Part shown: positions 23,267 through 39,344 of the stretch, in pieces
Position numbering within the stretch: position 1 is the first letter of the stretch
Layout of the letters: each line of letters opens with the position of its first letter
Source: Escherichia phage T4
DNA: 64,000 nucleotides
Reading direction: 5' to 3' (one strand)
Sequence record: OL964735.1
Position numbers and translations under genes: made by a program
The notes under the pieces: generated by a model
What the model saw: the letters and a program-made list of their open reading frames with translations, nothing else
Databases searched by the model: none
What the model was told of the DNA's origin: nothing

Positions 23267-24231
23267 TGTATTCTTTAGAGGAATTTAATAATCAAGCAAT
23301 AAACGCAGATTTCCAACGTAATAATATGTTTAGCTGCGTTTTTGCGACAACTCCATCAACTAAAAGCTCTTCGTTGATAAGTTCAATTAGCAACTTTTCT
23401 TATAATAACTTGGGCCTAAATTCAGATTGGTTAGGATTAACTCAAGGTGATATTAATCAGGGAATTACCACGCTAATTACAGCTGGCACACAAAAACTGA
23501 TAAGAAAATCAGGAGTCAGTAAATATCTTATTGGTGCCATGAGTCAACGTACAGTTCAAAGTTTATTAGGCTCATTTACAGTTGGTACATATTTAATTGA
23601 CTTCTTTAACATGGCATATAACTCATCTGGATTGATGATATACTCTGTAAAAATGCCAGAGAATAGATTATCCTATGAAACTGACTGGAACTATAATTCT
23701 CCTAATATTCGTATAACCGGAAGAGAATTAGACCCTTTGGTTATTTCATTTAGAATGGATTCAGAAGCTTGTAACTATCGTGCAATGCAAGACTGGGTTA
23801 ACTCCGTTCAAGACCCAGTAACTGGACTGCGTGCTTTGCCACAAGATGTCGAGGCAGATATTCAGGTTAATCTTCATTCTCGCAATGGATTACCTCATAC
23901 TGCGGTGATGTTCACCGGATGCATTCCAATATCAGTGAGCGCTCCTGAGTTATCATATGATGGAGATAACCAAATAACTACATTTGATGTTACTTTTGCG
24001 TACAGAGTGATGCAGGCTGGAGCAGTTGATAGGCAAGCTGCGCTTGAATGGCTTGAATCTGCTGCTATAAATGGTATTCAAAGCGTTCTCGGAAATAGTG
24101 GAGGTGTTACTGGACTATCTAATTCGCTTTCACGACTTAGTAGATTAGGGGGAACTGCAGGAAGCATTTCAAACATTAATACTATGACAGGAATTGTCAA
24201 TTCGCAGAGTAAAATATTAGGAGCAATATAA
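23266..24231 (+). CDS. 54: baseplate tail tube initiator (T4 gp54)
   Basis: 321-aa ORF, TAATG overlap with gene 48. Confidence 0.92.
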   Translation: MYSLEEFNNQAINADFQRNNMFSCVFATTPSTKSSSLISSISNFSYNNLGLNSDWLGLTQGDINQGITTLITAGTQKLIRKSGVSKYLIGAMSQRTVQSLLGSFTVGTYLIDFFNMAYNSSGLMIYSVKMPENRLSYETDWNYNSPNIRITGRELDPLVISFRMDSEACNYRAMQDWVNSVQDPVTGLRALPQDVEADIQVNLHSRNGLPHTAVMFTGCIPISVSAPELSYDGDNQITTFDVTFAYRVMQAGAVDRQAALEWLESAAINGIQSVLGNSGGVTGLSNSLSRLSRLGGTAGSISNINTMTGIVNSQSKILGAI

Positions 24232-24235
24232 CAAT

Positions 24236-24260
24236 GGGGACCGAAAGGTCCCCATATTTT
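24236..24260 (+). terminator. intrinsic terminator after gene 54
   Basis: GGGGACC-GAAA-GGTCCCC hairpin followed by ATATTTTTATTT. Confidence 0.7.
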
Positions 24261-24550
24261 TATTTACGGAATGAAATGAAAGCAGCAACTGAAGCAACTA
24301 AACTGTCTTCAATATAAACTTCAATTTTTACAGGAGCTTCTGACTCAAATTTACCTGTTACTACACCCTGAAAAATACTTTCAGTCTGTTCTGGCTTTGA
24401 AAAATTTTCAGAAGGAAAAATTCCGAACTTTTTATCTGTTCCAAAAATTTTGATAAATTCATCGTAAACCGCTTCGTTAAAAGCATTATCAGCAGGAATA
24501 ACGCCTTCAACTACAAGTTCTTGACCTAAAAAGCGTAAAGAAGATTTCAT
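24260..24550 (-). CDS. hypothetical protein (T4 alt.-3 position)
   Basis: 96-aa ORF downstream of early promoter cassette. Confidence 0.7.
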   Translation of the reverse strand: MKSSLRFLGQELVVEGVIPADNAFNEAVYDEFIKIFGTDKKFGIFPSENFSKPEQTESIFQGVVTGKFESEAPVKIEVYIEDSLVASVAAFISFRK

Positions 24551-24557
24551 TTTGTGT

Positions 24558-24611
24558 TCCTCATGTTATGTTAGTAAGACTACTATAACACAACACGAGG
24601 GACTTGTAAAC
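24558..24611. repeat. 54-bp promoter/RBS cassette, copy 1 (pairs with 37700-37753)
   Basis: 53 of 54 identical to 37700-37753. Confidence 0.85.
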
Positions 24612-24612
24612 T
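24575..24612 (-). promoter_or_regulatory. early promoter (GTTTACA -35, 17-nt spacer, TGTTATAGT extended -10)
   Basis: minus strand motifs with sigma70-like spacing upstream of alt.-3 ORF. Confidence 0.6.
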
Positions 24613-24786
24613 ACATTTTGAACTTTTTAGTACGCGTAATAGGCATGCGTCGATTTTATACTGTTTCATTGTTTGAAGAGCAGTATCAAAAACAGCATTA
24701 ATGACACCAATTGGATTTCCACCCAAGTTTTTAAGCTTAACTAATGATAGTTTCTCATTAACACCTATCATTACGATATGCATCAT
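24583..24786 (-). CDS. Alt-like fragment ORF (T4 alt.-2 position), paralog of Alt residues ~65-125
   Basis: 67-aa ORF; MMHIV...QTMKQYKIDACLLRVLKS aligns to Alt MMHIV...QTMRQYKIDACMLRILKS. Confidence 0.6.
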   Translation of the reverse strand: MMHIVMIGVNEKLSLVKLKNLGGNPIGVINAVFDTALQTMKQYKIDACLLRVLKSSKCSLQVPRVVL

Positions 24787-24968
24787 TTTATCGCCTGGTT
24801 TAACGTTTTATTTGTATCACCGCCAGAGGTGTATGTACAAAATCTAAATCCAGGAAGTACACTTTCTTCACCGGCTTGAATAGCAAAAATTTGTGGTATT
24901 TTATGCTTAGGATTTAAGTTAACAACCGGCGCCGAAGCGCCGTCAAATAATTCTGTAATAAGTTCCAT
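24783..24968 (-). CDS. Alt-like fragment ORF (T4 alt.-1 position), paralog of Alt residues ~2-62
   Basis: 61-aa ORF; MELITELFD...KIPQIF...PGFRFCTYTSGGDTN aligns to Alt N-terminus. Confidence 0.6.
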   Translation of the reverse strand: MELITELFDGASAPVVNLNPKHKIPQIFAIQAGEESVLPGFRFCTYTSGGDTNKTLNQAIK

Positions 24969-24971
24969 GAT

Positions 24972-27020
24972 TTATCCTTGAACGAACTTGTAAGGCATGT
25001 TTGCAATATCTATGCAAGACGCAATAATTCCAAGAGATGATTCTACTTTCTGTTTAACATTTGATGAAACAAATGATGCAAAGTCAACTCTATCTTCTAT
25101 ATCACCTGTCATTGTAACCAATTCACCAGTTTCCATTAAATGGTCTCCGTCATAGATTACCGATTCGGTGAGTTCTTCTGTGGTCATAACTTCAGCTTGA
25201 ATAAGCTTGTTGTTAGTTTTAACTGTTCCATCATTGTAAGATGCATCGGTTATTTTATTAACTTTGACCATTAATCCACGTGGCAAAATGACTTCCATTT
25301 CATTTGAAGGCGCTAAACTTCCACCGGGTAAAACAACATTGACCTTATCAGCCCCAGTAATAACCCATCCAATTCCAACTAAATTATCGCTAGAATTTAC
25401 AAGTCCTTCATCAGTTTTATCAATAGAAACGCTTAAACGCTTTTCGTCTGGTAAAACACCTATAGATGAATCAGTCATCCAAGTACCAAAAATATTTGGA
25501 TATAATGATGTTGACACAAAGTTTCTAAAATAAAAAACTCGATTTTTTACCATTGCTTCGTATATTGAAGGTAACATTCGTTGTGAACGATACAAAGTAA
25601 TACCTTTTGGTAATCGTTCACCATTTTTAAAGGCTGAATCTAAATTATCAATAGCTTTTTCTATGTCAGATGCTGTCAAAATACTTGTACGCTCATCTGG
25701 ATTATATAATCCCAAAAGAGCATTATTTATGTCTACATATCCTGAACCTACGTATTCACGAATTCCGCGTTTTTGCGCTGGTGTGTATTTAGATGAATCT
25801 TTATTTTCGACTATAGGATGTAATGACCATCCAGCGGTAAGAGCATATCCACGTAATTCTCTTCGAATAATCTTTGTTTTTATTGCATTCCAAGAATTTT
25901 GTACTAACTCATTTGCAGCATCTTGGTTTAAATGCGAATGTTTGTTAATATTTCTTTCAAACCAAGCACCCTTATATTTTTCTAAAGTATCATCGACGAT
26001 AGAAGCAATAGTTTCTAAGGTTTTTATTGAAGTAATAGATTCTTTTCGTAATCTTTCTAAAGCTTTATTTTTTATTTCTGCGTTAATAATGGATTCTTTA
26101 TCTTCAGGAATTATAGAAGCTTCTCTGAATGCCATCCCAGCTGTAACACTGCTAAGAGCATTCTCTAGTGCAAATCCTGAAGTAGAAATTACCGTTAATT
26201 CATTAGAATCAGAAATTAAAGGCGCGTCCGCTGGTTTATTTAATTCGGCCGCTGAAGCCTCAAATTTTTGAAACATTGGTGTTTCAAATCTAGAAGATTC
26301 CAATGACTGACTTTGCGCAATTGCTCTACGGGAAATTTTAACTTTAACGATTACAGCTTGGTCAGAACGTTTATCATTTTCTTGCGCAATAGATGCTGCA
26401 ATTGCCTCATTTTTAGTTACTTGAGCCCCAGTATCTTTATTGATATAAACATCACCGACCTTCGATTCAACTTTAGTAAAGAGCTCGGTACTAATTTCCG
26501 GAACTCCTGGAATGTCTTCTAGTGATACATTTTTGCGATGTATAAGAATATATGCATACTTTTTATCGTAATCCCAGAGTTCCTTAAGAAGGACGTATCT
26601 ACCACCTGAACGACTACGGATAAGTCTATCAGCAATAACTTGAATTTGTCGAGCTTGGCCAGCAGTTTTAGACTTAAGAATACGGAGCATACAGGCATCA
26701 ATTTTATACTGGCGCATTGTTTGCATTGCAACAGTAAAAACTGAATTGATATAATTAATTGGGCTTGGACCAAGACCTTTTAATTTAGCAATTGAACCTT
26801 TAGCAGTTAATGTAAAAGGAACAATATGCATCATTTTATCGCCCATCTTTAAATCACGATTAGTATCACCTCCAGATGTATAGGTACATAAACGAAAGCC
26901 TGGTTGTTCAATTGCATCATCAACATGAACTGAAAAAATTTGCGGTATTTTCTTCTTTGGATATAAGTTTGTAATTGGAAGAGTAGTATCTTCGTCAAAT
27001 AATTCTGTAATAAGTTCCAT
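24972..27020 (-). CDS. alt: Alt ADP-ribosyltransferase (virion-packaged)
   Basis: track gives 683 aa from the first of two ATGs; GAGG RBS spacing favours the second ATG (682 aa). Confidence 0.93.
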   Translation of the reverse strand: MELITELFDEDTTLPITNLYPKKKIPQIFSVHVDDAIEQPGFRLCTYTSGGDTNRDLKMGDKMMHIVPFTLTAKGSIAKLKGLGPSPINYINSVFTVAMQTMRQYKIDACMLRILKSKTAGQARQIQVIADRLIRSRSGGRYVLLKELWDYDKKYAYILIHRKNVSLEDIPGVPEISTELFTKVESKVGDVYINKDTGAQVTKNEAIAASIAQENDKRSDQAVIVKVKISRRAIAQSQSLESSRFETPMFQKFEASAAELNKPADAPLISDSNELTVISTSGFALENALSSVTAGMAFREASIIPEDKESIINAEIKNKALERLRKESITSIKTLETIASIVDDTLEKYKGAWFERNINKHSHLNQDAANELVQNSWNAIKTKIIRRELRGYALTAGWSLHPIVENKDSSKYTPAQKRGIREYVGSGYVDINNALLGLYNPDERTSILTASDIEKAIDNLDSAFKNGERLPKGITLYRSQRMLPSIYEAMVKNRVFYFRNFVSTSLYPNIFGTWMTDSSIGVLPDEKRLSVSIDKTDEGLVNSSDNLVGIGWVITGADKVNVVLPGGSLAPSNEMEVILPRGLMVKVNKITDASYNDGTVKTNNKLIQAEVMTTEELTESVIYDGDHLMETGELVTMTGDIEDRVDFASFVSSNVKQKVESSLGIIASCIDIANMPYKFVQG

Positions 27021-27048
27021 CATATCCTCTCTAGTGTTTATTCTATTC

Positions 27049-27056
27049 TATTTATA
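27049..27056 (-). promoter_or_regulatory. late promoter TATAAATA upstream of alt
   Basis: minus strand exact motif about 29 nt upstream of alt ATG. Confidence 0.55.
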
Positions 27057-27077
27057 AAATTAAAGGCCCGAAGGCCT

Positions 27078-27266
27078 TTAATAATCTATTGGTAAGAGAG
27101 TACGATATATTTCAAACTTTGGACCTTTTTCATAAGCATCAAATGTTTCTGTGAATTTATTATAAGCATATGCATCTATAAATTCAATCATGATTTGTGA
27201 TACAGAAGTAGAAACATCTCCACCTTCTTTTTGAGCCACGACAATTGTTTCTAAGTAAGCTTTCAT
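27078..27266 (-). CDS. hypothetical protein (T4 alt.1 position)
   Basis: 62-aa ORF. Confidence 0.65.
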   Translation of the reverse strand: MKAYLETIVVAQKEGGDVSTSVSQIMIEFIDAYAYNKFTETFDAYEKGPKFEIYRTLLPIDY

Positions 27267-28726
27267 AGACCAGTTACCTCATGAAAATCACCAAATACAT
27301 CTTCGAATGTATTAGCTTTAGTTTTATCTTCACGTAAACGAATCGCAATCGGAAGAAATAATTTAACGTAATCAGTGCGGCCATCAGATTTTAACCAACC
27401 GTTGCATTCGCACTCTAGAATTTTTCCAATATAATAATTTTGGTTTTCCATAATGCGAGTACGGTCAAGTTCATGCGATTTTACACCGGCTTTATCTTTT
27501 AAGCCTGAACCAGCATTTACCTTAATTTTTCCACACTCTGACTCAAGAATAAATCCACCCGCTTTAGTAGGGTCTTTACGGTGAGGATAAATTCCTACAA
27601 TTTTTAAATCAACATCAATTACTTCTTTAAATTTATAAAGATTTTTTGAACGAGCATTTTCCCATAATCCATCGATATTTTTGAGAATAATACCTTCAAG
27701 ACCTTGGTCAATATACTTTTTATAAATTACCTTAGCTTCATCTAGGTTATTTACTACCTGGTTTTCAATTAAAATTACTTTATCATATCCAGATGTCATT
27801 TGTTCTAGTTTAGAAAAACGTACATCATATTTCAAACGAAATGCAGGAAGACTGTATATTTCTACCAACGGGACATAATCCCAGACCTGAAACTTCATGC
27901 ATTGTGCTTCTTTTTCAGAAATGGTTCCCTTTAAAGATTTATTGGCGATTCCATTAGAAGCAGTACGTGATTCAGCTACTTCGGCGAATTCTTTAGCTTT
28001 ACTGTTTTCAGGATAAGCATCAAAAAGAAAATCTAGGCCTTCTGGCTCCTTTTTAACTTGCTCATGGTATACCAATTCGCCATCAATCAACACACCTTCT
28101 GGATGAATCTGGCGGGCTTCAGCGGTCATTTTAATTAACTCTTCCTTAAGAAGATCTAATCCTAGATATTCATTACCAGCTCGTGATAAAAGACGAACAT
28201 CATCTAATTCATCACCTCTAACTTCAGCAAAACACCGAGCTCCATCAGCTTTTAACTGAGCAAAGGCTGGAAATTTGATATTCTTATTAATGCCTTTTTC
28301 ATCATAAGAACTTGCGAGCATTTGAGGTTGTTCAGGAATTAAACCTGGCCAAACTTTGTTTGCAATAGATACTGAAGCACCACATTCAAGGTCTCGCATC
28401 ATCACTCGACGCAAAACTTCAACATCATCTTTTTTACCATCGGTGATATATCCAGTTAATTCCTCAATTGCTGCATTTCCAGTCAATTTCCGAGTAGCTA
28501 ATGTGAATTCAATGAAGTCAAGCATATCGGTAAGAGTCAACATTCCAAAACTCTGGGTAGCAATACCAGGTTTAGGCCATTTCTTGATATAATACTGTAA
28601 CCCACGAGAATAAGTCAGACGATATACTCGTTTAAGCAATTCATTATCTTTATTCTTTTCAAGAATTGCTTGCTTCTGTTTAGTTGAACCAATAGATGCT
28701 ATTTCGTTCAGAATTTTAAGAATCAT
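27263..28726 (-). CDS. 30: ATP-dependent DNA ligase (T4 gp30)
   Basis: 487-aa ORF; KxDG adenylation motif in QLKADGARCF. Confidence 0.96.
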   Translation of the reverse strand: MILKILNEIASIGSTKQKQAILEKNKDNELLKRVYRLTYSRGLQYYIKKWPKPGIATQSFGMLTLTDMLDFIEFTLATRKLTGNAAIEELTGYITDGKKDDVEVLRRVMMRDLECGASVSIANKVWPGLIPEQPQMLASSYDEKGINKNIKFPAFAQLKADGARCFAEVRGDELDDVRLLSRAGNEYLGLDLLKEELIKMTAEARQIHPEGVLIDGELVYHEQVKKEPEGLDFLFDAYPENSKAKEFAEVAESRTASNGIANKSLKGTISEKEAQCMKFQVWDYVPLVEIYSLPAFRLKYDVRFSKLEQMTSGYDKVILIENQVVNNLDEAKVIYKKYIDQGLEGIILKNIDGLWENARSKNLYKFKEVIDVDLKIVGIYPHRKDPTKAGGFILESECGKIKVNAGSGLKDKAGVKSHELDRTRIMENQNYYIGKILECECNGWLKSDGRTDYVKLFLPIAIRLREDKTKANTFEDVFGDFHEVTGL

Positions 28727-28992
28727 TGTTCATCCTTTAGAGTTTGGTTTACAGCTCTATTATAAATCAATTCATCATTAAGCTCAGTCAAAGACCTGTG
28801 GTACGTGGTTCTAACTTTATTTCCTTGCATCCAGTGCTTGATATAAATGAAACCTTGCTCTACACATTTTTTAAAAATTCGTTCGTCTTTTTGAGCTCGG
28901 AATTCTGGATTGCATCTAAAAAATTGATTTACGTGACCGTAATCACGTGTAGTATTACCTTCATTTTCATAAATAGTGTGAACAACAAACAT
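28723..28992 (-). CDS. hypothetical protein (30.1 position)
   Basis: 89-aa ORF. Confidence 0.65.
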   Translation of the reverse strand: MFVVHTIYENEGNTTRDYGHVNQFFRCNPEFRAQKDERIFKKCVEQGFIYIKHWMQGNKVRTTYHRSLTELNDELIYNRAVNQTLKDEQ

Positions 28993-29828
28993 TAGAATGC
29001 TCCTTGGAAAATATTATCACCACAAGTAGGTCTATTATACAAATACTCTATACCGCCGGGCTTAATATAGTTCCATGTCTGAAACGGATGCGTCTGATAT
29101 GGATGATATGGATTATAAGGATTAAATCCAGGAGTTCTCCAGGTAGTGTTCCAAGGAAAAGAATCGTTTTTAATCATCTTTTCAATTACATCTTTTATAG
29201 CTTTTTCACTATCAAAACTTTCTTTATTTTCCTTTGGTGAAAAAAGCTTATTCTCTACATCGTTCCATGTATAAACTCGCTGAGCAGTTTTTGGAATATT
29301 GTCACGCTCTCCTCGAGCCATCCAATACACAGGAACACGTAATATTTCACTCGCGTGATCGCAGTGGTGAGCGAGATCGTCAATATAACAAATTACGTTA
29401 TATTTCTCTTTTGCTTTTTTGAACAACTCTTCTTTTGAAGAATCATGACTACACATCAGTACTTCTGAGAAAGCACCAGGAAAAAGAGCATTCAAATTAA
29501 ATTGACGATTTAATAGAGCGTCAATAGAATCACCCAATGCTGTAACAGCAACAAAATTATAATCTTCTTTTAATTTGTTAATTACACACAGAGCATCTTT
29601 ATATGGAGACAAGTAACGAATAAAATCCGAACGATTGTATTTTTCAATTAACTTGACGCCAAGTTCTTCATCACAGTTAAAGAGTTTACCAGGAGAAATA
29701 AATTTCTCATCTTGGATCATTTTTAAAATATGTTCTAACGGAAGATTATATTTCTGAGCAAAATAAGGAAGGCCTGATTGCCAGCTTAAACATACTCCAT
29801 CAATATCAGTTAAAATAGTAGGCTTCAT
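28992..29828 (-). CDS. HAD-superfamily hydrolase-like protein (30.2 position)
   Basis: 278-aa ORF; N-terminal TDIDGV (HAD motif I-like) and YIDD (motif IV-like). Confidence 0.7.
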   Translation of the reverse strand: MKPTILTDIDGVCLSWQSGLPYFAQKYNLPLEHILKMIQDEKFISPGKLFNCDEELGVKLIEKYNRSDFIRYLSPYKDALCVINKLKEDYNFVAVTALGDSIDALLNRQFNLNALFPGAFSEVLMCSHDSSKEELFKKAKEKYNVICYIDDLAHHCDHASEILRVPVYWMARGERDNIPKTAQRVYTWNDVENKLFSPKENKESFDSEKAIKDVIEKMIKNDSFPWNTTWRTPGFNPYNPYHPYQTHPFQTWNYIKPGGIEYLYNRPTCGDNIFQGAF

Positions 29829-30289
29829 AGAGAGTCTCTTAATAGGTTTAACACATCAATAAATTCAGCTTCGGTTAGTATTGTATCATCTTTTGTTAGA
29901 CCACTAGCAATGCTGTGCTTCAAAACTTTTCCTTTCGAGGCTTGTAATGCATCACGAAAGCCCTTGTTTTGAATCGCTGCTTCAAAATATGCATTTGTGT
30001 ATAATTCTTTCCACGCCGGGGAGTATCTTGAAAACGGAACTCCAAGCCAAAAGAGGGTCCCACGGTCCTGAGCTCTAGCATAAGACCTTCCAGCTTGTTG
30101 GGCGGCAAGCCCGGATAACCCAAATATACGACGTTGTTGTTCAACATTTTTCACCTTACACCCTTGGAGGAATCCTTCAAGACCTCCAAATTGAATACCA
30201 TCCATAACGAAAGGCCATTGGGCGAAATTACTTAATGCACATGATGGCCACCTAAAATTGCTTCTAATCTCTAACTCAGACATTTTCAA
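29825..30289 (-). CDS. NADAR/YbiA-like domain protein (30.3 position)
   Basis: 154-aa ORF with ALSNFAQWPF...DG and EGFLQGCK motifs resembling the NADAR family. Confidence 0.65.
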   Translation of the reverse strand: MKMSELEIRSNFRWPSCALSNFAQWPFVMDGIQFGGLEGFLQGCKVKNVEQQRRIFGLSGLAAQQAGRSYARAQDRGTLFWLGVPFSRYSPAWKELYTNAYFEAAIQNKGFRDALQASKGKVLKHSIASGLTKDDTILTEAEFIDVLNLLRDSL

Positions 30290-30482
30290 TGCTTATAATT
30301 TCAACATCAGCCCAATGACCATAGCAAGGAAGACGAAATTCAACTGGCCAGTTAGGGTCCTTTTCTAATATAATAGACTCAACTTGTGGTTCTTCGTGTT
30401 CATCAGTATACGGATTTTTATCTGTTACTTTATATGTGACCTTAATGTACTGAATTCCAAAAATCTTATTAATTATATTCAT
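30276..30482 (-). CDS. hypothetical protein (30.x region)
   Basis: 68-aa ORF. Confidence 0.55.
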   Translation of the reverse strand: MNIINKIFGIQYIKVTYKVTDKNPYTDEHEEPQVESIILEKDPNWPVEFRLPCYGHWADVEIISIENV

Positions 30483-30676
30483 ACTAATTCCTTTAATCCG
30501 TAGATAGGAGATAATTCATCACCCATACGAAGGTCTTCATTTCCATCTACCCAGGAAACAATATAAGCCTCTTTTATTTGAATACCACTCCATTTAAATG
30601 GAGGTAGAACCTTAGAAATTAATCCAGGTATACCAACTCCCTTTAATTCAACAGTTTGACCTAAAAAGAATTTCAT
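30479..30676 (-). CDS. hypothetical protein (30.x region)
   Basis: 65-aa ORF. Confidence 0.55.
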   Translation of the reverse strand: MKFFLGQTVELKGVGIPGLISKVLPPFKWSGIQIKEAYIVSWVDGNEDLRMGDELSPIYGLKELV

Positions 30677-30963
30677 TAGAACCTCATCTGAAAACCGTGC
30701 GATTTAACATTACCGCCGCCAATATCAGAAATGTTAATTTCACGCGCAATTGAAGGGTCAATGTCAATTTCACGATTGAGTTTAGTGATAGCTAAAGTAT
30801 CACGCCCATTTACAGTACGGAACTCTAAAGGACAAACCACATCAACGTAGTTTTTAATCGATTCGCTAGTAAGTTGCAAATGTGCAGGAAGGTCTTTAGG
30901 TGCCTTTGAGAAAACCACTTCACAGAAATTTTTGCGGGTATCAAAATAAGTAGTCATAAACAT
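30676..30963 (-). CDS. hypothetical protein (30.x region)
   Basis: 95-aa ORF with GAGGA RBS. Confidence 0.6.
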   Translation of the reverse strand: MFMTTYFDTRKNFCEVVFSKAPKDLPAHLQLTSESIKNYVDVVCPLEFRTVNGRDTLAITKLNREIDIDPSIAREINISDIGGGNVKSHGFQMRF

Positions 30964-31004
30964 AATATTTTCCTCAGTAAGGGGCTGAAGCCCCTCATTT
31001 TATT

Positions 31005-31370
31005 TTAAATATCAAATTCATTAAGAACTACATCAAAGATTGCTTCAAGATGCTCAGGTTTAGCTCTGTTACTCAGAATATGACGAATCCAAGTTTTAAC
31101 TAAGAGTTTACGATTAGCACCATTCCAGCAAGGATGAGTCCCTAAATCGCGTTGGCGGAAATCATCATCCAGAGCGATTTTGAAGTTGGAACCTTTCATC
31201 GTGATTGAAACCGTGATACCGTTTTCAAATCGCATATAAACGTAGTTAGGAGTCATATACTGTTCAATTTCGCATACTGATCCATTTTGATGTTTCCAGA
31301 GGCAAATAGTATCAATAGAACCTGCAATACCATTAGAAACATATTTACGTTCAAAGTTAATGTAGTTCAT
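31005..31370 (-). CDS. hypothetical protein (30.x region)
   Basis: 121-aa ORF. Confidence 0.6.
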   Translation of the reverse strand: MNYINFERKYVSNGIAGSIDTICLWKHQNGSVCEIEQYMTPNYVYMRFENGITVSITMKGSNFKIALDDDFRQRDLGTHPCWNGANRKLLVKTWIRHILSNRAKPEHLEAIFDVVLNEFDI

Positions 31371-31438
31371 TTTTATTCTCCGAGATGTTTAATTGCGGTA
31401 CAGGTATATAATATCATATCCTGTACCAAAGTAAACAA

Positions 31439-31771
31439 TTATTTTACTACTTTCCAATGCTGCATGTCAAGTTTACCAACTTTTTTCATCTTCTCAATTA
31501 AGCGTTCTGCACGTTGGCGAGCTGTAACATAATGCCATTCGCCTAATTCATTTTGTTCAATTTTTCCAACGATTACTGTATTCAATTCATAAATCCAACC
31601 AGTAAAGAAATTATGAACTTGAATTGTAAAGGTGAAATCTGTTCCCATACCTTCTGTTGTTTCTACTTCAATAATATCACCTTCAACTGCCATTAAGAAC
31701 CACATAGTTTCATCATATTTACCATTGAAGCATTTAGTTTTAACTGCAGCGTTCAGATTAATCGTTTTCAT
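31439..31771 (-). CDS. hypothetical protein (30.x region)
   Basis: 110-aa ORF. Confidence 0.6.
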   Translation of the reverse strand: MKTINLNAAVKTKCFNGKYDETMWFLMAVEGDIIEVETTEGMGTDFTFTIQVHNFFTGWIYELNTVIVGKIEQNELGEWHYVTARQRAERLIEKMKKVGKLDMQHWKVVK

Positions 31772-31845
31772 TTTATTCTCCTTTGTTTGTGTAAGATAAT
31801 ACTATCACAAAGGAACTATACTGTAAACAACTTTGTGCAATCTTT

Positions 31846-31876
31846 GGAAAATAAAAAAGGACTCCCGAAGGAGTCC
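31846..31876 (-). terminator. intrinsic terminator downstream of small basic ORF
   Basis: minus strand GGACTCC-TTCG-GGAGTCC hairpin followed by TTTTTTATTTTCC. Confidence 0.65.
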
Positions 31877-31881
31877 TCAAC

Positions 31882-32058
31882 TTATGCTTTCTGCTTACCA
31901 AAACGAGAAGCATCATCTCGAAGAACCGCACGTGCTCGGCGCATGATCTTCTCAACAGTTTGATTGATACGAGAGTTCGACCCACGCTTGTAGCCAGCGC
32001 GTTTAGAATCACCAACTTTCTTTTCAACTGCTTTCTTTGCTTTAGCTTGTTTTGCCAT
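31882..32058 (-). CDS. hypothetical small basic protein (58 aa, 30.9-like position)
   Basis: track ORF starts at non-ATG 32100; first in-frame ATG at 32058 gives 58 aa rich in K/R. Confidence 0.5.
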   Translation of the reverse strand: MAKQAKAKKAVEKKVGDSKRAGYKRGSNSRINQTVEKIMRRARAVLRDDASRFGKQKA

Positions 32059-32302
32059 TATAAATTCTCTTTTAAATGAAAATGCAGGACTTATTGGCAT
32101 TGCCTGCGCAAGCCCTCAAGGGGAACATAGGTTTTTGGATATTTAACGACCAGGATAACCATAAACCCGTCATCATTCACATTCAAGAGGTACACCGTAA
32201 AACTGTCGGGGTCTTAAAACTATAATGATTCGCAAATCATTAATCAGACAGTTCGACGGCTCCTCGATTTAGCTCACACTAAGGCAGTGAATCTCCAATA
32301 AA

Positions 32303-32551
32303 TTACTTCAGTGTTACCACAAAGTGACGAACTGCTTTTCGTGCAGCAGAAGCCAGAGGCTTAGCATATTTAAGTTCATCTTTTTCCTGAAGCTCAGCAG
32401 CTAATGCAGTTTGAGCAGGATTCAGATGTTTGAAATAACGCAGGATTTCAAGAGCTTCGGCTTCAACATCAATAGATGCGCCATAGTTTTCGTGACCATT
32501 ATTCCATGCGTTTCGTTGCAGTTCAAGAGCGTGTTGTAATTGTTTAATCAT
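32303..32551 (-). CDS. rIII: rIII lysis-inhibition accessory protein
   Basis: 82-aa ORF. Confidence 0.9.
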   Translation of the reverse strand: MIKQLQHALELQRNAWNNGHENYGASIDVEAEALEILRYFKHLNPAQTALAAELQEKDELKYAKPLASAARKAVRHFVVTLK

Positions 32552-32690
32552 TTAAAAATTCTCGTTAGAGATTAAAACTCGGTAGTCACGTTCTTCTGAA
32601 TTTCATCTTCTTTCGACAGATCTCTCAGTTGTAGACTACCACATAGAATTGTTCGGTTAACTTATTATTCCGACACCCAATTCATATTAT

Positions 32691-32698
32691 TATTTATA
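32691..32698 (-). promoter_or_regulatory. late promoter TATAAATA upstream of rIII
   Basis: minus strand exact motif adjacent to gene 31 stop; about 140-nt leader to rIII. Confidence 0.55.
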
Positions 32699-33034
32699 TC
32701 ACTTATAAAGACACGGAATAGCTTTATAGTGACAGGTAACGAATTTTTGTTTAATTTCTTTTGGCTGCTTAAGACCCAGAGCTACAAAAGGATGCGGAAC
32801 ATTTCGAATTTGACCAACTGGAAGAGAAGTCAAATCACCAACTTCGCAGAAACCTTCAGGAACATCAGGACCGACAGAGTGAACTACACACAGTTCAGGA
32901 ACTTCACCTTGAACACGTTTACCGATAATAAGTCCTGATTCTGTAACTTCTTCATCACCGGCTTGTGCAGGTTCAGAAACTAAAATAACATATTCACCGA
33001 CAGCACGAATTGGTAGCTGTTGTACTTCAGACAT
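32699..33034 (-). CDS. 31: head assembly co-chaperonin (T4 gp31, GroES-like)
   Basis: 111-aa ORF. Confidence 0.93.
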
Positions 33035-33061
33035 CGTTTTTCCTTTTTGTTAACAGATGAA

Positions 33062-33092
33062 TTAATAATAACAAATAGTTCTTAAAGCATTT
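33062..33092 (-). promoter_or_regulatory. middle promoter for gene 31 (MotA box TGCTTTA)
   Basis: minus strand TGCTTTA, 12-nt spacer, TATTAT; about 30 nt upstream of ATG. Confidence 0.55.
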
Positions 33093-33399
33093 ATTTACCA
33101 ATAAATTGAAGCAAATGCTCAACTTTCATACCATTAACGGAAATCAATTTGTCAATAGAAAAACCTCGCCACGCACCAAGCTCAACATCAAATACTGGAA
33201 TCATGTCAGTAGATTCTTTCCGAGTAGATTCAGTCAATTTGCCAGTTTGCATGGTTGGCATAAAGTCTGCATCACGAGTACCTTTCATAGTACGAATAGT
33301 ACCATCAGACTTTTCAAAAACTACGTTTGAAACACCCATGGACAATTTAGTTTTCAAAATTTCACGAATTGCTACTTTCTGCTCAGTTGTCAGTTTCAT
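33091..33399 (-). CDS. hypothetical protein (31.1 position)
   Basis: 102-aa ORF. Confidence 0.65.
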   Translation of the reverse strand: MKLTTEQKVAIREILKTKLSMGVSNVVFEKSDGTIRTMKGTRDADFMPTMQTGKLTESTRKESTDMIPVFDVELGAWRGFSIDKLISVNGMKVEHLLQFIGK

Positions 33400-33636
33400 T
33401 TATTTACCTATTACAGTTTTAATATGAGTTGTTCCACGTTCTTTAAGGGTGGAAAGTAATTTTTGGCATTTTTCTAAATCAGATTTCCAACTATATGGTC
33501 TATCAATACAAACCCAATTTGTCTTATAATACTGTTTCCATTTAGAGAAAAAATATTTCTTATACTCTACAGCAAATGAGATGTTCTCGTTAGAATAAGA
33601 ACTAATTGCTGTGAGTTTTACCAAACGAAATTTCAT
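33400..33636 (-). CDS. hypothetical protein (31.2 position)
   Basis: 78-aa ORF. Confidence 0.6.
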   Translation of the reverse strand: MKFRLVKLTAISSYSNENISFAVEYKKYFFSKWKQYYKTNWVCIDRPYSWKSDLEKCQKLLSTLKERGTTHIKTVIGK

Positions 33637-34217
33637 TATTCACCACAGAATTCGTTGATATTTTCCCAGTTTAACTTATTCAAGTTTTTCTTAGGAACAT
33701 TAAACACTTCAATACCTGCATTTCGCAGAATATCATCCCAACCGGGTTTATTTTTGTCGTATGTTTCACAATAAACCAGCTTTTTAATACCAGATTGAGC
33801 TATCGCTTTTGCGCAATCTGGACAAGGAGAAAGTGTTACATACATAGTAGCACCTTCAATAGAAGAACCATTTCGTGCAGCAAACAAAATTGCATTTAGT
33901 TCAGCATGAATTTCATTTTTAGATGACCATTCCGAGTGAGCACTACGATGTTCTTTCGCCAAAACAAAACGATCAGTTGAACCAAATGATACGCATTCAG
34001 GCTTATGACCTTGAATGATAGCATGTTTAGGCTTATTCAACAACCATCCTTGCTCAGCAGCATAATCACAACAGTTCACACCCCCTGCGGGTGAACCATT
34101 ATACCCAGTAGAAATAATACGTCCATTCTTTTCAATTACTGCTCCTACCTTCCAGGAGCAACATTTTGATTCCTGCGATACTAAATATGCAATTTGAAGT
34201 ACTGTACTCGCTTTCAT
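33636..34217 (-). CDS. cd: dCMP deaminase
   Basis: 193-aa ORF; HAE and PCPDC zinc-binding deaminase motifs. Confidence 0.95.
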   Translation of the reverse strand: MKASTVLQIAYLVSQESKCCSWKVGAVIEKNGRIISTGYNGSPAGGVNCCDYAAEQGWLLNKPKHAIIQGHKPECVSFGSTDRFVLAKEHRSAHSEWSSKNEIHAELNAILFAARNGSSIEGATMYVTLSPCPDCAKAIAQSGIKKLVYCETYDKNKPGWDDILRNAGIEVFNVPKKNLNKLNWENINEFCGE

Positions 34218-34552
34218 TTCATAATCACCAGATAAGCAGATTTAGCAGTTTCAACACGATAAATTTCGTGACGAAGTTTAGTTATACTTTTAATAACAGA
34301 ACTAATTATATTCTGCCCATCTTTAAAGCGGTTTTTCTTATCAATAAAAACTGCGCCAGTCATCTTTTTGTGAAGCTCAACTGGATACTTCGTCACAATA
34401 ATAGCATCATACACAGAAGGATGAATACTATTCACCAGAGTATCATTCATTAAAGTTATTCTAATGAACTGTGCTGTTTCAGAATCAAGCGCTCTATGAT
34501 CGCCAGTATCATTTTCAAGACAATTATCAATTATATCAGTTAAATTCATCAT
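34214..34552 (-). CDS. hypothetical protein (cd.1 position)
   Basis: 112-aa ORF. Confidence 0.6.
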   Translation of the reverse strand: MMNLTDIIDNCLENDTGDHRALDSETAQFIRITLMNDTLVNSIHPSVYDAIIVTKYPVELHKKMTGAVFIDKKNRFKDGQNIISSVIKSITKLRHEIYRVETAKSAYLVIMK

Positions 34553-34788
34553 AGTACGCCATACACCCTTTGTGCTTCAACTAATCCATCAAAATCCAGT
34601 TTAAGATGCGATATTTGATCGCCATCACCTGGATTCACAATTACTAATACTGAACGAGGAGTTTCGGTAATAACACGAACCGATGTTTCAGGAAATCGTT
34701 CAGAAACCTTATTTACTAATTCCTGCGCAAATAGTTTAACTTTTTCTTGGAATTCTTTAACAGTAATCGGTTTTTCACTTAGCAACAT
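34549..34788 (-). CDS. hypothetical protein (cd.2 position)
   Basis: 79-aa ORF. Confidence 0.6.
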   Translation of the reverse strand: MLLSEKPITVKEFQEKVKLFAQELVNKVSERFPETSVRVITETPRSVLVIVNPGDGDQISHLKLDFDGLVEAQRVYGVL

Positions 34789-34816
34789 TTTGTTTTCCTC
34801 ATTTGTTTTGGTAGAG

Positions 34817-35026
34817 CTATAATATCACAACTCTACCGTAAAGTAAACCATTAAATCGCTTTGAATTCCGCAGTTTGAGATTCAAATCTGGAAGCAAAGT
34901 GTTCAATACATGAGTCACTTGAGCATGGATTCGAAGCTCAGCTGCGTTATCAAGTTTTTCAAACATATTATTAGCGATAATTTGGCTAAACACTACTTCT
35001 ACGATTTTAGAGTAAGTCGGAAACAT
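34817..35026 (-). CDS. hypothetical protein (cd.3 position)
   Basis: 69-aa ORF. Confidence 0.55.
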   Translation of the reverse strand: MFPTYSKIVEVVFSQIIANNMFEKLDNAAELRIHAQVTHVLNTLLPDLNLKLRNSKRFNGLLYGRVVIL

Positions 35027-35028
35027 AT

Positions 35029-35221
35029 TTACCTCACATAATTTTCTTCAAGCCAATCAATAACATCCAACGCATTATCAAAAGTTGAACCATCTACTCT
35101 GTCTTCTGTTTCATAATCAAGAACATCTAGGCCTACTCTTCCGTCAACAATAGGCCATAGACAAAATAGATATTTCTTTTCTTTTTCAATTTTATCACAA
35201 AGACGATAAATCTTTTCTAGG

Positions 35222-35229
<8 letters not shown>
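35029..35229 (-). CDS. hypothetical protein (cd.4 position)
   Basis: 66-aa ORF. Confidence 0.55.
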
Positions 35230-36548
<1,319 letters not shown>

Positions 36549-36552
<4 letters not shown>

Positions 36553-36848
36553 TTACATTTATCCTCTTTTAGCTCTTGACGATAATAACATATCATAGTT
36601 TTCTGGTCATGTACATATCGTTTTACATCATTAAGCCAAATACGAAATTCCTGAGAATCTTCAAATGGCATACCGACCCAGGCTTTACCATCAATAACTT
36701 TAACTTGCCAAGATAGTTTAGCTTCATCATATGACTTTATTTGCACAGGCCAATTAGGATGAACTGTTTCTTTCTTTACTTCTAGAGGCTTTGTCGAACA
36801 ACCAACTAGAAGACCAATAGATAATATTACTGCTGATAGTTTAATCAT
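36549..36848 (-). CDS. putative lipoprotein (pseT.2 position)
   Basis: 99-aa ORF; signal peptide ending in lipobox-like LVGC. Confidence 0.6.
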
Positions 36849-37198
36849 TTAGAAAGGTCCTGGATGTCTTCTGCGAACTTGTTGAAGGAGTTGTTGATTT
36901 GTTTTTCAACCAATCCTGGCTTATGAGCCACCACATCCGCCTTCTTTGCATCTTTGCGCAGTTTTTCATTTTCACGCTCAATAGCAGCAATTGCCTCACG
37001 ATTTTTATTATTCATCGCATCAATATAATTATACTGAATTCGCAAATTATTTAATGCTAAGGCGTTTTCATTGGCCGTTTTTGTAATTTCAGTAACTGAT
37101 GTTTCTAATCTTTCTACCTTATGTTTTAAAATAATAGATGTTCCGCCAAATGCTATTACAAGTAATAGCAATCCAGCTGTAAAATTACTTACATGCAT
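36845..37198 (-). CDS. putative membrane-anchored protein (pseT.3 position)
   Basis: 117-aa ORF with N-terminal hydrophobic helix. Confidence 0.6.
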   Translation of the reverse strand: MHVSNFTAGLLLLVIAFGGTSIILKHKVERLETSVTEITKTANENALALNNLRIQYNYIDAMNNKNREAIAAIERENEKLRKDAKKADVVAHKPGLVEKQINNSFNKFAEDIQDLSK

Positions 37199-37695
37199 AA
37201 AGTTTTAATAACCTCTACAATATCGTCTTGAGAAAGACCGTTAATTAAAATATGATGTTCAGCTGGAGATTTAGAAATTTTAAAGCATGCCTCAACATCT
37301 TCTGCCATATCCGATGCACTACGATTTGGATTACTAATACCAAGGCGATGTTTTCCCGTCAAAGGATTAACGATGATATAGCATTTGCAGCTATTGATAT
37401 GAACATTGGGTTGAGTCTGATTAATGAACACTTCACAATCATACTTAGCAAGTTGATTTTCTAAAAAGACTTTCATCTCTTCAACCGCATCAGGAAGCAT
37501 ATCACGGGCTTGCTCAAGACGACGATTTCGATATTCTTTAATGGTCGTTTTCCGCTTGACTTGCTTAGCTAAATCTTTCTTAAGATCAGTGATATATCCA
37601 ACTCGACGATTTCCTTTGAATACAGAAATCCCATCTGTAGTATCACCGTATGCTTCAACGACCATTTCAGTAGTAATAAGTTGTAAATCCATCAT
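37189..37695 (-). CDS. alc: Alc, inhibitor of host transcription on cytosine DNA
   Basis: 168-aa ORF (two consecutive ATGs); downstream of early promoter cassette. Confidence 0.88.
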   Translation of the reverse strand: MMDLQLITTEMVVEAYGDTTDGISVFKGNRRVGYITDLKKDLAKQVKRKTTIKEYRNRRLEQARDMLPDAVEEMKVFLENQLAKYDCEVFINQTQPNVHINSCKCYIIVNPLTGKHRLGISNPNRSASDMAEDVEACFKISKSPAEHHILINGLSQDDIVEVIKTLCM

Positions 37696-37699
37696 AAAG

Positions 37700-37753
37700 T
37701 CCTCATGTTATGTCAGTAAGACTACTATAACACAACACGAGGGACTTGTAAAC
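37700..37753. repeat. 54-bp promoter/RBS cassette, copy 2 (pairs with 24558-24611)
   Basis: 53 of 54 identical to copy 1. Confidence 0.85.
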
Positions 37754-37754
37754 A
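37717..37754 (-). promoter_or_regulatory. early promoter for alc (GTTTACA -35, 17-nt spacer, TGTTATAGT)
   Basis: identical motifs to the promoter at 24575-24612. Confidence 0.6.
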
Positions 37755-37756
37755 AC

Positions 37757-39344
<1,588 letters not shown>

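What the first reader, a model, noticed from the sequence alone, without database searches (positions are those of the whole stretch)
24558..24611. 54-bp early promoter plus RBS cassette duplicated 13 kb apart (alt.-3 ORF and alc)
The segment TCCTCATGTTATGT(T/C)AGTAAGACTACTATAACACAACACGAGGGACTTGTAAAC occurs at 24558-24611 and 37700-37753 with one mismatch. On the minus strand it reads GTTTACA, 17-nt spacer, TGTTATAGT, then a leader ending in a GAGG Shine-Dalgarno. Each copy sits directly upstream of a different early ORF. Conservation of leader and RBS as well as the promoter suggests a co-regulated cassette or recent promoter transfer. The direct repeats could also mediate deletion of the intervening 13 kb.
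Basis: seen in the sequence. Interest (0 to 1): 0.55.

Follow-up and report, generated by a model that had tools for sequence, protein, structure and literature searches.

The report
Duplicated T4 early promoter-hairpin-RBS cassette
Phage T4 carries two almost identical 54-base "promoter plus ribosome-binding-site" cassettes in front of the early genes alt.-3 and alc, and each cassette also folds into a hairpin that probably lets the gene be translated only from the cassette's own transcripts; this is a tidy example of known T4 regulatory devices, not a new kind of element.

Summary
The repeat is real. Window 24558-24611 and 37700-37753 match at 53/54 positions. The next most similar pair of early promoters in the window matches at 40/54. 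The window is phage T4, and the copies sit directly upstream of alt.-3 and alc on the minus strand.

Each copy has TTTACA, a 17-nt spacer, TGnTATAGT, a short leader and GAGGA, ending 7 nt before the start codon. Published omics data class both genes as early in RNA and protein.

The promoter spacer pairs with the leader and Shine-Dalgarno sequence, giving -23 and -27 kcal/mol (z -5.3 and -4.0). The -10 box lies at the hairpin apex. Transcripts from the cassette's own promoter therefore lack the 5' arm and are unstructured, while read-through transcripts would bury the ribosome-binding site.

Six other T4-like genera have the same design upstream of alc, with different but mutually complementary arms. 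This is strong covariation.

Exact duplication onto alt.-3 is seen only in Tequatrovirus. Deleting the 13 kb between the copies would remove essential genes 30 and 31.

The closest known kinds are PeSL cassettes and the T4 e/soc/49/I-TevI hairpins. I class this as a new member of known kinds, of moderate interest.

The parts
24558..24611 (-). Cassette copy 1 (upstream of alt.-3). Cassette position 1 is the G of GTTTAC at window 24611; position 54 is the A of GAGGA at 24558.
24605..24610 (-). Copy 1 -35 hexamer TTTACA
24587..24600 (-). Copy 1 5' arm of the hairpin (cassette positions 12-25, CCUCGUGUUGUGUU). It lies in the promoter spacer and is therefore upstream of any start site used by this promoter.
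24582..24590 (-). Copy 1 extended -10, TGTTATAGT, in the apical part of the hairpin. The TAG stop codon of alt.-2 (24583-24585) lies inside it.
24575..24575 (-). Copy 1 predicted transcription start (A, 7 nt after the -10; T4 coordinate about 123057). Inferred, not mapped.
   Evidence: inference
24559..24572 (-). Copy 1 3' arm (cassette positions 40-53, AACAUAACAUGAGG), which includes the SD; GAGGA is at 24558-24562.
24260..24550 (-). alt.-3 CDS (96 aa, Pfam DUF5498), early gene served by copy 1
27049..27056 (-). Late-promoter consensus TATAAATA just upstream of alt. It is a likely source of late transcripts that read through alt, alt.-1 and alt.-2 into copy 1; no minus-strand terminator-like site lies between them.
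37700..37753 (-). Cassette copy 2. It fills 54 of the 64 nt of the rnlA-alc intergenic space.
37747..37752 (-). Copy 2 -35 hexamer TTTACA
37729..37742 (-). Copy 2 5' arm of the hairpin (promoter spacer)
37724..37732 (-). Copy 2 extended -10, TGTTATAGT
37717..37717 (-). Copy 2 predicted transcription start (A; T4 coordinate about 136300). Inferred, not mapped.
   Evidence: inference
37701..37714 (-). Copy 2 3' arm, which includes the SD; GAGGA is at 37700-37704.
37189..37692 (-). alc CDS (167 aa, Pfam ALC), early gene served by copy 2
37757..38881 (-). rnlA (gene 63), the upstream gene whose transcripts would read into copy 2

Best explanation
The two repeats are copies of one phage T4 early-expression cassette, read on the minus strand. 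The cassette holds a sigma-70-type T4 early promoter (TTTACA, 17 nt, TGnTATAGT), a leader of about 25 nt and a GAGGA ribosome-binding site 7 nt before the start codon. One copy drives alc and the other drives alt.-3. Both genes are therefore switched on immediately after infection.

The cassette is also a hairpin. The promoter spacer is complementary to the leader plus Shine-Dalgarno sequence, and the -10 box and start site sit at the apex. RNA started at the cassette's own promoter begins inside the loop. It lacks the 5' arm and has a free ribosome-binding site. RNA arriving from upstream promoters (through rnlA, or through the late gene alt) contains both arms and buries the ribosome-binding site.

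The cassette thus provides its own early promoter and also blocks translation of its gene from read-through transcripts.

The alc version of this design is old, being shared by at least seven genera. In the ancestor of Tequatrovirus, the unit from -35 to SD was copied precisely onto alt.-3, probably by ectopic recombination or gene conversion.

Shown here: the repeat, its anatomy, the predicted fold, the covariation, the phylogenetic distribution and the early expression class. Inferred: the transcription start sites, the translational gating and the direction of copying.
For: Identity and anatomy are covered.

Folding. 86-nt RNAs spanning each copy fold at -23.3 kcal/mol (z -5.33) and -26.9 kcal/mol (z -4.02). 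None of 200 shuffles folds as well, and GAGG pairs with CCUC of the spacer. RNAs starting at the predicted +1 fold at only -1.0 and -1.8 kcal/mol (z about 0). Because the 5' arm lies between -35 and -10, it is upstream of any start site this promoter can use.

Covariation. Dhaka-, Roskilde-, Karam-, Jiaoda-, Gelderland- and Bragavirus have different arm sequences upstream of alc, each complementary within its own genome. Examples are UCUCCAUUUG/CAAAUGGAGA and AUCCUCAUCAG/CUGAUGAGGAU. The SD lies in the stem and z-scores run from -3.8 to -5.4. Matched spacer:leader duplexes average -19.3 kcal/mol against -9.95 for mismatched genus pairs. Only 6 of 20000 permutations reach the observed value, which is about the frequency of the identity permutation.

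Variation within Tequatrovirus (13 variants). 97.9% of cells are paired. Six of the seven changes in the basal stem keep or improve pairing: C11U, C15U, G16A seen twice, G40A and C42U. Most other variation falls in the apex. The three PST substitutions raise stability to -25.7 kcal/mol.

Strand. G-U pairs make the sense strand 4.6 to 10 kcal/mol more stable than the antisense strand in Tequatrovirus, which points to an RNA-level structure.

Context and precedent. alt.-3 and alc are early in RNA and protein, while upstream alt is late. A late-promoter consensus lies upstream of alt, with no terminator-like site before the cassette. In T4 genes e, soc, 49 and I-TevI, the SD is sequestered in long transcripts and freed in transcripts that start inside the hairpin (PMC3014915).

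Direction of copying. The promoters upstream of alt.-3 in Dhaka-, Marfa- and Karamvirus and in F2 are of a different, spacer-only hairpin type.
Against: No transcription start site or translation measurement was available, so the gating rests on predicted folds. In Tegunavirus and Kanagawavirus the hairpin spans the -10 but ends 4-5 nt before the SD. Mosigvirus alc has only a small hairpin within the spacer. Other T4 early promoters in the window (at 31436, 34848 and 47557) also sit in hairpins that span the -10 but do not include the SD, so the general role of such hairpins may be something other than SD occlusion. There is no obvious physiological reason why late translation of Alc would be harmful. 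rnlA RNA is itself classed early, so the gate would discriminate by transcript origin, not simply by time. Cassette sequence identity to other genera (62-74%) does not separate alc-type from alt.-3-type ancestors, so the direction of copying rests on architecture alone. In T4 itself, the alt.-2 reading frame ends inside the hairpin; a ribosome translating alt.-2 could open the stem, although no alt.-2 protein was detected.
Confidence: 0.6

Rival explanations
1. The hairpin acts on the upstream transcript and does not affect translation. It would be a PeSL-style attenuator or insulator of read-through transcription, or a protective or processing hairpin that defines and stabilises the 3' ends of rnlA and alt messages. 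On this view the SD lies in the stem only because intergenic space is short.
For: The stem-loop of a PeSL (PeSL211/210) from the phi1/RB49 pair reduced lacZ expression about as much as a strong terminator (PMC2839356). Several other T4 early promoters, and the alc promoters of Teguna- and Kanagawavirus, have hairpins spanning the -10 that do not include the SD.
Against: Neither copy is followed by a U-run, and the terminator scan does not call them. In all seven genera the 3' flank is A-rich. In seven genera the stem extends exactly over the SD.
Confidence: 0.2
2. The palindrome works at the DNA level. It could be a binding site for a dimeric protein, a cruciform that affects promoter opening, or a recombination hot spot that makes the cassette mobile.
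For: In the other genera the arms are perfect Watson-Crick palindromes, equally stable on both strands. The PeSL authors speculated that a stem-loop-binding recombination protein might exist.
Against: In Tequatrovirus the stem holds 2-3 G-U pairs, which become A-C mismatches on the other strand. The sense strand is 4.6-10 kcal/mol more stable, and the PST changes create further G-U pairs. The arm sequence differs completely between genera, which does not fit a conserved protein-binding site.
Confidence: 0.08
3. The duplication has no function beyond supplying a promoter. One ectopic gene-conversion event copied the alc cassette, and the copies are still alike only because Tequatrovirus genomes are closely related. 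The hairpin matters at alc, if anywhere.
For: Divergence between the two copies within one genome (0-6 differences) is similar to divergence of the same copy between genomes, and KAW1E185 shows no homogenisation. Tequatrovirus genomes are 95-99% identical in these regions.
Against: The alt.-3 copy keeps its stem. Its basal-stem substitutions preserve pairing, and in PST they adapt the stem to the alt.-3-specific 3' flank, raising stability to -25.7 kcal/mol.
Confidence: 0.1
4. One reading: the direct repeats matter mainly as substrates for deletion or duplication of the 13 kb between them.
For: T4 recombination needs only about 50 bp of homology (Singer et al. 1982, as cited in PMC2839356). 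PeSL pairs do generate excised mini-circles in RB49 and phi1.
Against: The interval contains genes 30 and 31, which are essential, plus rIII, cd and pseT. Every T4 record found, including strains with shortened genomes, keeps both copies.
Confidence: 0.02

Closest known systems
PeSL (promoter-early stem-loop) regulatory cassettes of T4-type phages (Arbiol et al. 2010, PMC2839356; Comeau et al. 2014, PMC4122927)
   Same: Both are intergenic composite units made of an upstream stop codon, a sigma-70-like early promoter, a stem-loop, an SD and a start codon. PeSLs are repeated within a genome and are thought to move by recombination. One described PeSL subclass has the stem-loop overlapping the -10 box. 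The consensus given for the T4/PST pair, TTTACW-N17-TAYWAT, fits this cassette.
   Different: PeSLs were defined as loosely similar motifs clustered in hyperplastic regions, and their stem-loop was interpreted as a terminator or attenuator. Here there are two near-identical copies 13 kb apart. One of them is in a conserved locus (rnlA-alc). There is no U-tract after the stem. The 3' arm is the ribosome-binding site itself. For PST/T4, the published stem-loops are described as lying upstream of the promoter.
Transcript-specific RBS-occluding hairpins of T4 genes e, soc, 49 and I-TevI (reviewed in PMC3014915)
   Same: In both, the SD or AUG is buried in a helix in long read-through transcripts. 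A promoter placed within the hairpin region yields a shorter transcript that lacks the 5' arm and can be translated.
   Different: In the known cases the internal promoter is a late promoter, so translation is confined to late times. Here the internal promoter is an early promoter whose own spacer is the anti-SD arm. None of the gating has been tested experimentally for alc or alt.-3.
Conserved early-promoter/leader elements at the T-even internal-protein (ip) loci (Repoila et al. 1994, as described in PMC2839356)
   Same: Both are repeated elements based on T4 early promoters and are linked to exchange of the downstream gene.
   Different: The ip elements flank highly variable genes and are associated with gene shuffling. 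Here the downstream genes are fixed, and the cassette is what was copied. That paper could not be read here.

Membership tests
T4 early (Pe) promoter | GTTTAC/TTTACA at -35, spacer of about 17 nt, extended -10 TGnTAtaaT | tested here: met
   TTTACA-17-TATAGT with an upstream TG at both copies, 10/12 consensus matches
T4 early (Pe) promoter | A/T-rich UP-like region upstream of -35 | tested here: inconclusive
   The upstream flanks lie outside the repeat and are unrelated (20/60 identical). Both are A/T-rich, with A-tracts, but they were not scored against a UP-element model.
T4 early (Pe) promoter | Downstream gene is expressed immediately after infection | tested here: met
   Published time-resolved data class alt.-3 and alc as early RNA and early protein, while upstream alt is late (PMC9697503, supplementary files 4 and 6, and main text).
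T4 early (Pe) promoter | Mapped transcription start about 7 nt after the -10 | not testable with these tools
   The dRNA-seq TSS table of bioRxiv 10.1101/2024.04.04.588121 is not held as text. Miller et al. 2003 is not held.
PeSL cassette | Composite of stop codon, early promoter, stem-loop, SD and start codon in an intergenic space | tested here: met
   The rnlA stop codon lies just upstream of the -35. The alt-paralogue stop overlaps the G of GTTTAC in RB33 and SH7. The hairpin spans the -10, and the SD and ATG follow.
PeSL cassette | Family of repeated copies within one genome | tested here: met
   There are two near-identical copies. Further hairpin-bearing early promoters in the window are 30-40/54 identical.
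PeSL cassette | Located in hyperplastic regions next to variable ORFs or indels | tested here: inconclusive
   The alt.-3 copy abuts the variable alt-paralogue region: only 90 of 499 records cover at least 80% of that locus. The alc copy lies in a conserved locus, covered in 496 of 499 records.
PeSL cassette | Stem-loop acts as a terminator or attenuator | not testable with these tools
   Function was not measured. The sequence lacks a U-tract and is not called by the terminator scan.
PeSL cassette | Copies recombine, giving mini-circles and gene shuffling | not testable with these tools
   The only indirect evidence is the precise -35-to-SD borders of the duplication and its restriction to Tequatrovirus.
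T4 RBS-occluding hairpin with internal promoter (e/soc/49/I-TevI type) | SD and/or AUG is base-paired in the longer transcript | tested here: met
   By prediction: GAGG pairs with CCUC, at -23.3 and -26.9 kcal/mol with z -5.3 and -4.0. Covariation across 7 genera supports it.
T4 RBS-occluding hairpin with internal promoter (e/soc/49/I-TevI type) | The promoter's own transcript starts inside the hairpin and lacks the 5' arm | tested here: met
   This follows from geometry. The 5' arm lies between -35 and -10, so it is upstream of any start site. The short transcripts fold at -1.0 and -1.8 kcal/mol. The start site itself is unmapped.
T4 RBS-occluding hairpin with internal promoter (e/soc/49/I-TevI type) | The internal promoter is a late promoter (TATAAATA) | tested here: not met
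   The internal promoter is of the early type. The cassette therefore works like this family but with reversed temporal logic.
T4 RBS-occluding hairpin with internal promoter (e/soc/49/I-TevI type) | Demonstrated difference in translation between long and short transcripts | not testable with these tools
   This needs reporter, toeprint or ribosome-profiling experiments.
Intrinsic (Rho-independent) terminator | G+C-rich hairpin followed by a U-run | tested here: not met
   The terminator scan of 23500-40500 lists neither copy. The 3' flanks are ACACAAAAUG and CUUUAUGAUG.

The most novel reading that the evidence does not exclude
The cassette represents a class of self-insulating early expression modules in T4-like phages. 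On this reading, promoter spacer sequences are selected for complementarity to the downstream ribosome-binding site, and RNA polymerase contacts do not explain their conservation. A gene would then be translated only from its own promoter's transcripts. The modules would be exchanged as precise -35-to-SD units between loci. The alc and alt.-3 loci would have swapped cassette types at least twice: alc type onto alt.-3 in Tequatrovirus, and alt.-3 type onto alc in Mosigvirus.
Probability: 0.3. Interest if true: 0.6.

Novelty: new member of a known kind. Interest (0 to 1): 0.38.

Why it matters
If the gating is real, it explains why an apparently neutral promoter spacer and a leader are conserved together. 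It shows how T4-like phages can place an immediate-early gene directly downstream of late or long transcription units without leaky translation. It also gives a clean natural example of a regulatory unit, from -35 to SD, being copied between loci as one piece. In practice the 54-nt cassette could serve as a compact, self-insulated early expression module for phage engineering. The biology still lies within two concepts already described for T4-type phages, PeSL cassettes and RBS-occluding hairpins with internal promoters, and T4 itself is exhaustively annotated.

Tried and rejected
- **Third or diverged copies.** I scanned for copies with up to 18-20 of 54 mismatches in the window and in 12 related loci; none was found.
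- **Intrinsic terminator.** Rejected, because there is no U-run.
- **Known RNA family.** Rfam at gathering thresholds finds nothing in the whole window.
- **Concerted evolution of the two copies.** Not supported. KAW1E185 has about 6 differences between its copies, PST has 3, and other genomes have 0. This is comparable with divergence of orthologous copies between genomes.
- **Within-genus covariation.** Variation is too low. There are no double-sided changes, and the shuffle control is uninformative.
- **One cross-genus column alignment for pair counting.** MAFFT did not keep the 3' arms in register. I used a matched-versus-mismatched duplex permutation test instead.
- **Donor locus from sequence identity.** Uninformative; all comparisons fall at 62-74%.
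- **Published start sites.** Miller et al. 2003 is not held. The dRNA-seq TSS table is not held as text. The Comeau et al. 2014 supplements are not held. Literature searches for a prior description of the alc/alt.-3 pair or an alc hairpin found nothing specific.
- **IMG/VR and metagenome scans.** These yielded only a handful of T4-like contigs.
- **First attempt to fetch the MX01 alc locus.** It missed the gene and was repeated.

Full report
**Observation.** The stated segment exists. Window 24558-24611 and 37700-37753 are identical at 53 of 54 positions, or 55 of 57 if extended by three bases. Each half of the cassette, searched with up to three mismatches, finds only these two sites, against zero expected in shuffled sequence. 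The window has ten GTTTAC-N17-19-TAnnnT promoters on the minus strand. Over 54 nt from the -35, this pair scores 53/54. The next most similar pair scores 40/54, and the other pairs average 24/54. The 60 nt on either side of the repeat are only 20/60 and 21/60 identical. The duplication therefore has sharp borders, running exactly from the -35 element to the Shine-Dalgarno sequence.

**Where it is.** The window is bacteriophage T4, at 100% identity to several T4 records. In the reference annotation all genes here are on the minus strand. Copy 1 lies between alt.-2 and alt.-3. The alt.-2 stop codon TAG falls inside the -10 box, and the alt.-3 ATG lies 7 nt after GAGGA. Copy 2 fills 54 of the 64 nt between the rnlA (gene 63) stop codon and alc, again with 7 nt from GAGGA to the annotated ATG. 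T4 genomes hold exactly two copies at megablast sensitivity.

**Promoter reading.** Both copies score as TTTACA, 17-nt spacer, TATAGT with an upstream TG, which fits the extended T4 early-promoter pattern reviewed by Hinton (PMC2988021). I could not obtain a mapped start site. Miller et al. 2003 is not held, and the dRNA-seq start-site table of a recent T4 preprint is not held as text. Indirect experimental support comes from the time-resolved transcriptome and proteome of Wolfram-Schauerte et al. (PMC9697503). There, alt.-3 and alc are both classed as early RNA and early protein. The gene upstream of alt.-3, alt, is late. alt.-1 and alt.-2 are classed as middle RNA with no protein class assigned. 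rnlA is early RNA and late protein. An early gene lying directly downstream of a late gene needs its own early promoter, and the cassette is the only candidate.

In the sense orientation the cassette is an imperfect palindrome. Numbering the G of GTTTAC as position 1, positions 12-25 (CCUCGUGUUGUGUU, the promoter spacer) pair with positions 40-53 (G/A-ACAUAACAUGAGG, the leader plus SD). The -10 hexamer (25-30) and the predicted start site (A37) sit in the apical part.
- The 86-nt RNAs spanning each copy fold at -23.3 kcal/mol (z -5.33) and -26.9 kcal/mol (z -4.02). No shuffle out of 200 folds as well.
- RNAs that begin at the predicted start fold at only -1.0 and -1.8 kcal/mol, indistinguishable from shuffles.
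[quoted passage not shown] Any transcript arriving from upstream must contain it.
- A late-promoter consensus TATAAATA sits just upstream of alt (27049-27056, minus strand). No minus-strand terminator-like site lies between it and copy 1, or between the upstream genes and copy 2. Read-through RNA is therefore expected.

**Is the hairpin selected? Evidence across genera.** I looked upstream of alc in other genera of T4-like phages, using an Alc tblastn search and loci.
- Dhakavirus, Roskildevirus, Karamvirus, Jiaodavirus, Gelderlandvirus and Bragavirus all have GTTTACA followed at once by a spacer that is complementary to the leader and SD. The arm sequences differ between genera: UCUCCUCAU/AUGAGGAGA, UCUCCUCAG/CUGAGGAGA, UCUCCAUUUG/CAAAUGGAGA, AUCCUCAUCAG/CUGAUGAGGAU, UCUCCGUUUAGUU/AACUAAACGGAGA and AACCUCUCAUUUU/AAAAUGAGAGGUU.
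- Each folds with z between -3.8 and -5.4, with 0 of 200 shuffles as stable.
- In a matched-versus-mismatched test, each genus's spacer pairs far better with its own leader (mean -19.3 kcal/mol) than with the leaders of other genera (mean -9.95). Only 6 of 20000 random reassignments reach the observed mean, which is roughly the frequency of the identity permutation. This is covariation across the promoter.
- There are exceptions. In Tegunavirus and Kanagawavirus the hairpin spans the -10 but stops 4-5 nt short of the SD. Mosigvirus alc has only a small hairpin inside the spacer. Gaprivervirus has another gene upstream and no such element.

**Is the hairpin selected? Evidence within Tequatrovirus.** I collected 13 distinct cassette variants from 25 loci.
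- 97.9% of pair cells are standard pairs. There are no double-sided changes, so this test has little power on its own.
- Of the seven changes in the basal stem, six keep or improve pairing: C11U, C15U, G16A in two contexts, G40A and C42U. One, G40U, breaks a terminal pair.
- Positions 27, 29, 32, 33 and 34 at the apex vary freely. G29A converts TATAGT to TATAAT.
- The three substitutions in the alt.-3 copy of phage PST remove the bulge and raise stability to -25.7 kcal/mol, z -5.7.
- The Tequatrovirus stem contains G-U pairs, so the sense strand is 4.6-10 kcal/mol more stable than the antisense strand. This favours an RNA-level structure over a purely DNA-level palindrome.

**Mechanism proposed.** The cassette is an early promoter with a built-in translational insulator. 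Its own transcripts have a free ribosome-binding site, while read-through transcripts bury it. This is the logic established for T4 genes e, soc, 49 and I-TevI, where long transcripts sequester the SD or AUG and a promoter inside the hairpin region yields a translatable RNA (PMC3014915). In those cases the internal promoter is late; here it is early. The gating is inferred, not shown. Four points argue for caution.
- Four other early promoters in the window (31436, 31828, 34848, 47557) also sit in hairpins that span the -10. Only the promoter at 31828, upstream of 30.8, includes its SD in the stem. Such hairpins may therefore have a more general role.
- Arbiol et al. interpreted PeSL stem-loops as terminators or attenuators (PMC2839356). 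These cassettes, however, lack a U-run and are followed by A-rich sequence.
- rnlA RNA is itself classed early, so the gate would separate transcripts by origin and not strictly by time.
- No cost of late Alc synthesis is known.

**Origin of the duplication.** Both copies sit at the same two loci throughout Tequatrovirus: 409 records and 633 places. In many relatives (RB33, several metagenomic contigs) the two copies are 54/54 identical, with G at position 40. The A at position 40 of the T4 alt.-3 copy is a derived change confined to the T4 clade; 21 records match at 99% or better. In relatives such as RB33 and SH7, the cassette upstream of alt.-3 abuts the stop codon of a full-length second Alt paralogue. 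T4 retains only the remnants alt.-1 and alt.-2.

Outside Tequatrovirus the alt.-3 promoter is of another type, with a short hairpin wholly inside the spacer: Dhakavirus MX01, Marfavirus VAC36, Karamvirus KMB17 and phage F2. In MX01 the two types occur in the same genome. The simplest reading is that the alc-type unit was copied precisely onto alt.-3 in the Tequatrovirus ancestor. This rests on architecture only, because sequence identities (62-74%) do not discriminate.

In Mosigvirus Shf125875 and in F2, the alc and alt.-3 cassettes also resemble each other, at about 75-80% with indels, but both are of the spacer-hairpin type. That suggests a transfer in the opposite direction there. I found no sign of ongoing homogenisation: KAW1E185 has about six differences between its copies.

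**The deletion idea.** The 13 kb between the copies includes gene 30 (DNA ligase), gene 31 (GroES-like co-chaperonin), rIII, cd and pseT. Genes 30 and 31 are essential by classical T4 genetics, so a deletion between the repeats would not be viable. Every T4 record found, including shortened laboratory strains, keeps both copies. Recombination between 54-bp repeats is mechanistically plausible, since T4 needs about 50 bp of homology (as cited), but it would be a dead end.

**Comparison with known systems.** The closest described entities are the PeSL cassettes of T4-type phages, with composition stop codon, early promoter, stem-loop, SD and start codon. A stem-loop overlapping the -10 is a described subclass, and the T4/PST consensus is TTTACW-N17-TAYWAT. 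The other close match is the group of T4 RBS-occluding hairpins with internal promoters. The cassette meets the compositional definition of a PeSL. It does not look like a terminator. It works like the e/soc/49/I-TevI hairpins but fails their "late promoter" feature. Rfam has no matching family. I found no paper in the held library that describes this particular pair or an alc hairpin, but the older T4 literature is mostly not held, so prior description cannot be excluded.

**Verdict.** The element is a new member of known kinds in the best-studied phage. The cross-genus covariation between a promoter spacer and a ribosome-binding site is the most interesting result and is directly testable. 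Interest is moderate (0.38).

Noticed in passing
window 34886/34887 (inside cd.3): The window lacks 100 bp that every deposited T4 genome has (AF158101 133370-133469). All best database hits to the junction match in two pieces spanning 220 bp. This is either a strain-specific deletion that truncates cd.3 or an artefact of how the window was made.
   Followed up: partly
window 24941-24971 and 26993-27023: A 31-nt repeat (30/31 identical) marks the 5' ends of alt.-1 and alt. This is the known partial duplication of alt. Relatives (RB33, SH7, MLP2) carry a full-length second Alt paralogue of about 685 aa where T4 has only alt.-1 and alt.-2, so T4 has an internal deletion of that paralogue.
   Followed up: partly
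window 31799-31828, 31408-31436, 34819-34848, 47528-47557 (minus strand): Four other T4 early promoters in the window also sit in stable hairpins with the -10 box at the apex. The promoter at 31828 (upstream of 30.8) also has its SD in the stem. The promoters at 34848 and 47557 are 40/54 identical to each other.
   Followed up: partly
L015/L025 (Shigella phage Shf125875) and L022/L026 (phage F2): In these Mosigvirus-type genomes the alc and alt.-3 promoter cassettes also resemble each other (about 75-80% with small indels). Both belong to a different type, with the hairpin inside the spacer only. This hints at a second, independent exchange between the same two loci.
   Followed up: partly
window 24545-24564 and 37689-37706 (minus strand): The AUG inside the 3' arm (CAUGAGGA) opens a mini-ORF of 4-5 codons. 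Its UGA overlaps the alt.-3 and alc start codons (AUGA) in both copies, even though the sequence after GAGGA differs between them.
   Followed up: no
window 8010-8041 and 57218-57249: Two near-identical (91%) hairpins, GGGAACC-UUCG-GGUUCCC, each followed by a T-run. They are probably intrinsic terminators of one repeated type.
   Followed up: no
window 24234-24255: A perfect 9-bp GC-rich hairpin lies between the convergent genes alt.-3 and 54 and is called terminator-like on both strands. It is a likely bidirectional terminator and the end of the alt.-3 transcripts.
   Followed up: no
window 53624-54549 (+ strand): Several families of diverged direct repeats (45-68 nt, 62-87% identity) lie within a long + strand coding region. 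By synteny with the PST annotation this is probably the tail-fibre gene 34.
   Followed up: no
L031 (Acinetobacter phage Henu6), upstream of alc: Here the GTTTACA element is followed by a perfect 11-bp hairpin and a T-run (AACCCAUUAUG...CAUAAUGGGUU UAUUCUUUUU). In this distant relative the promoter-hairpin unit therefore looks like a true intrinsic terminator.
   Followed up: no
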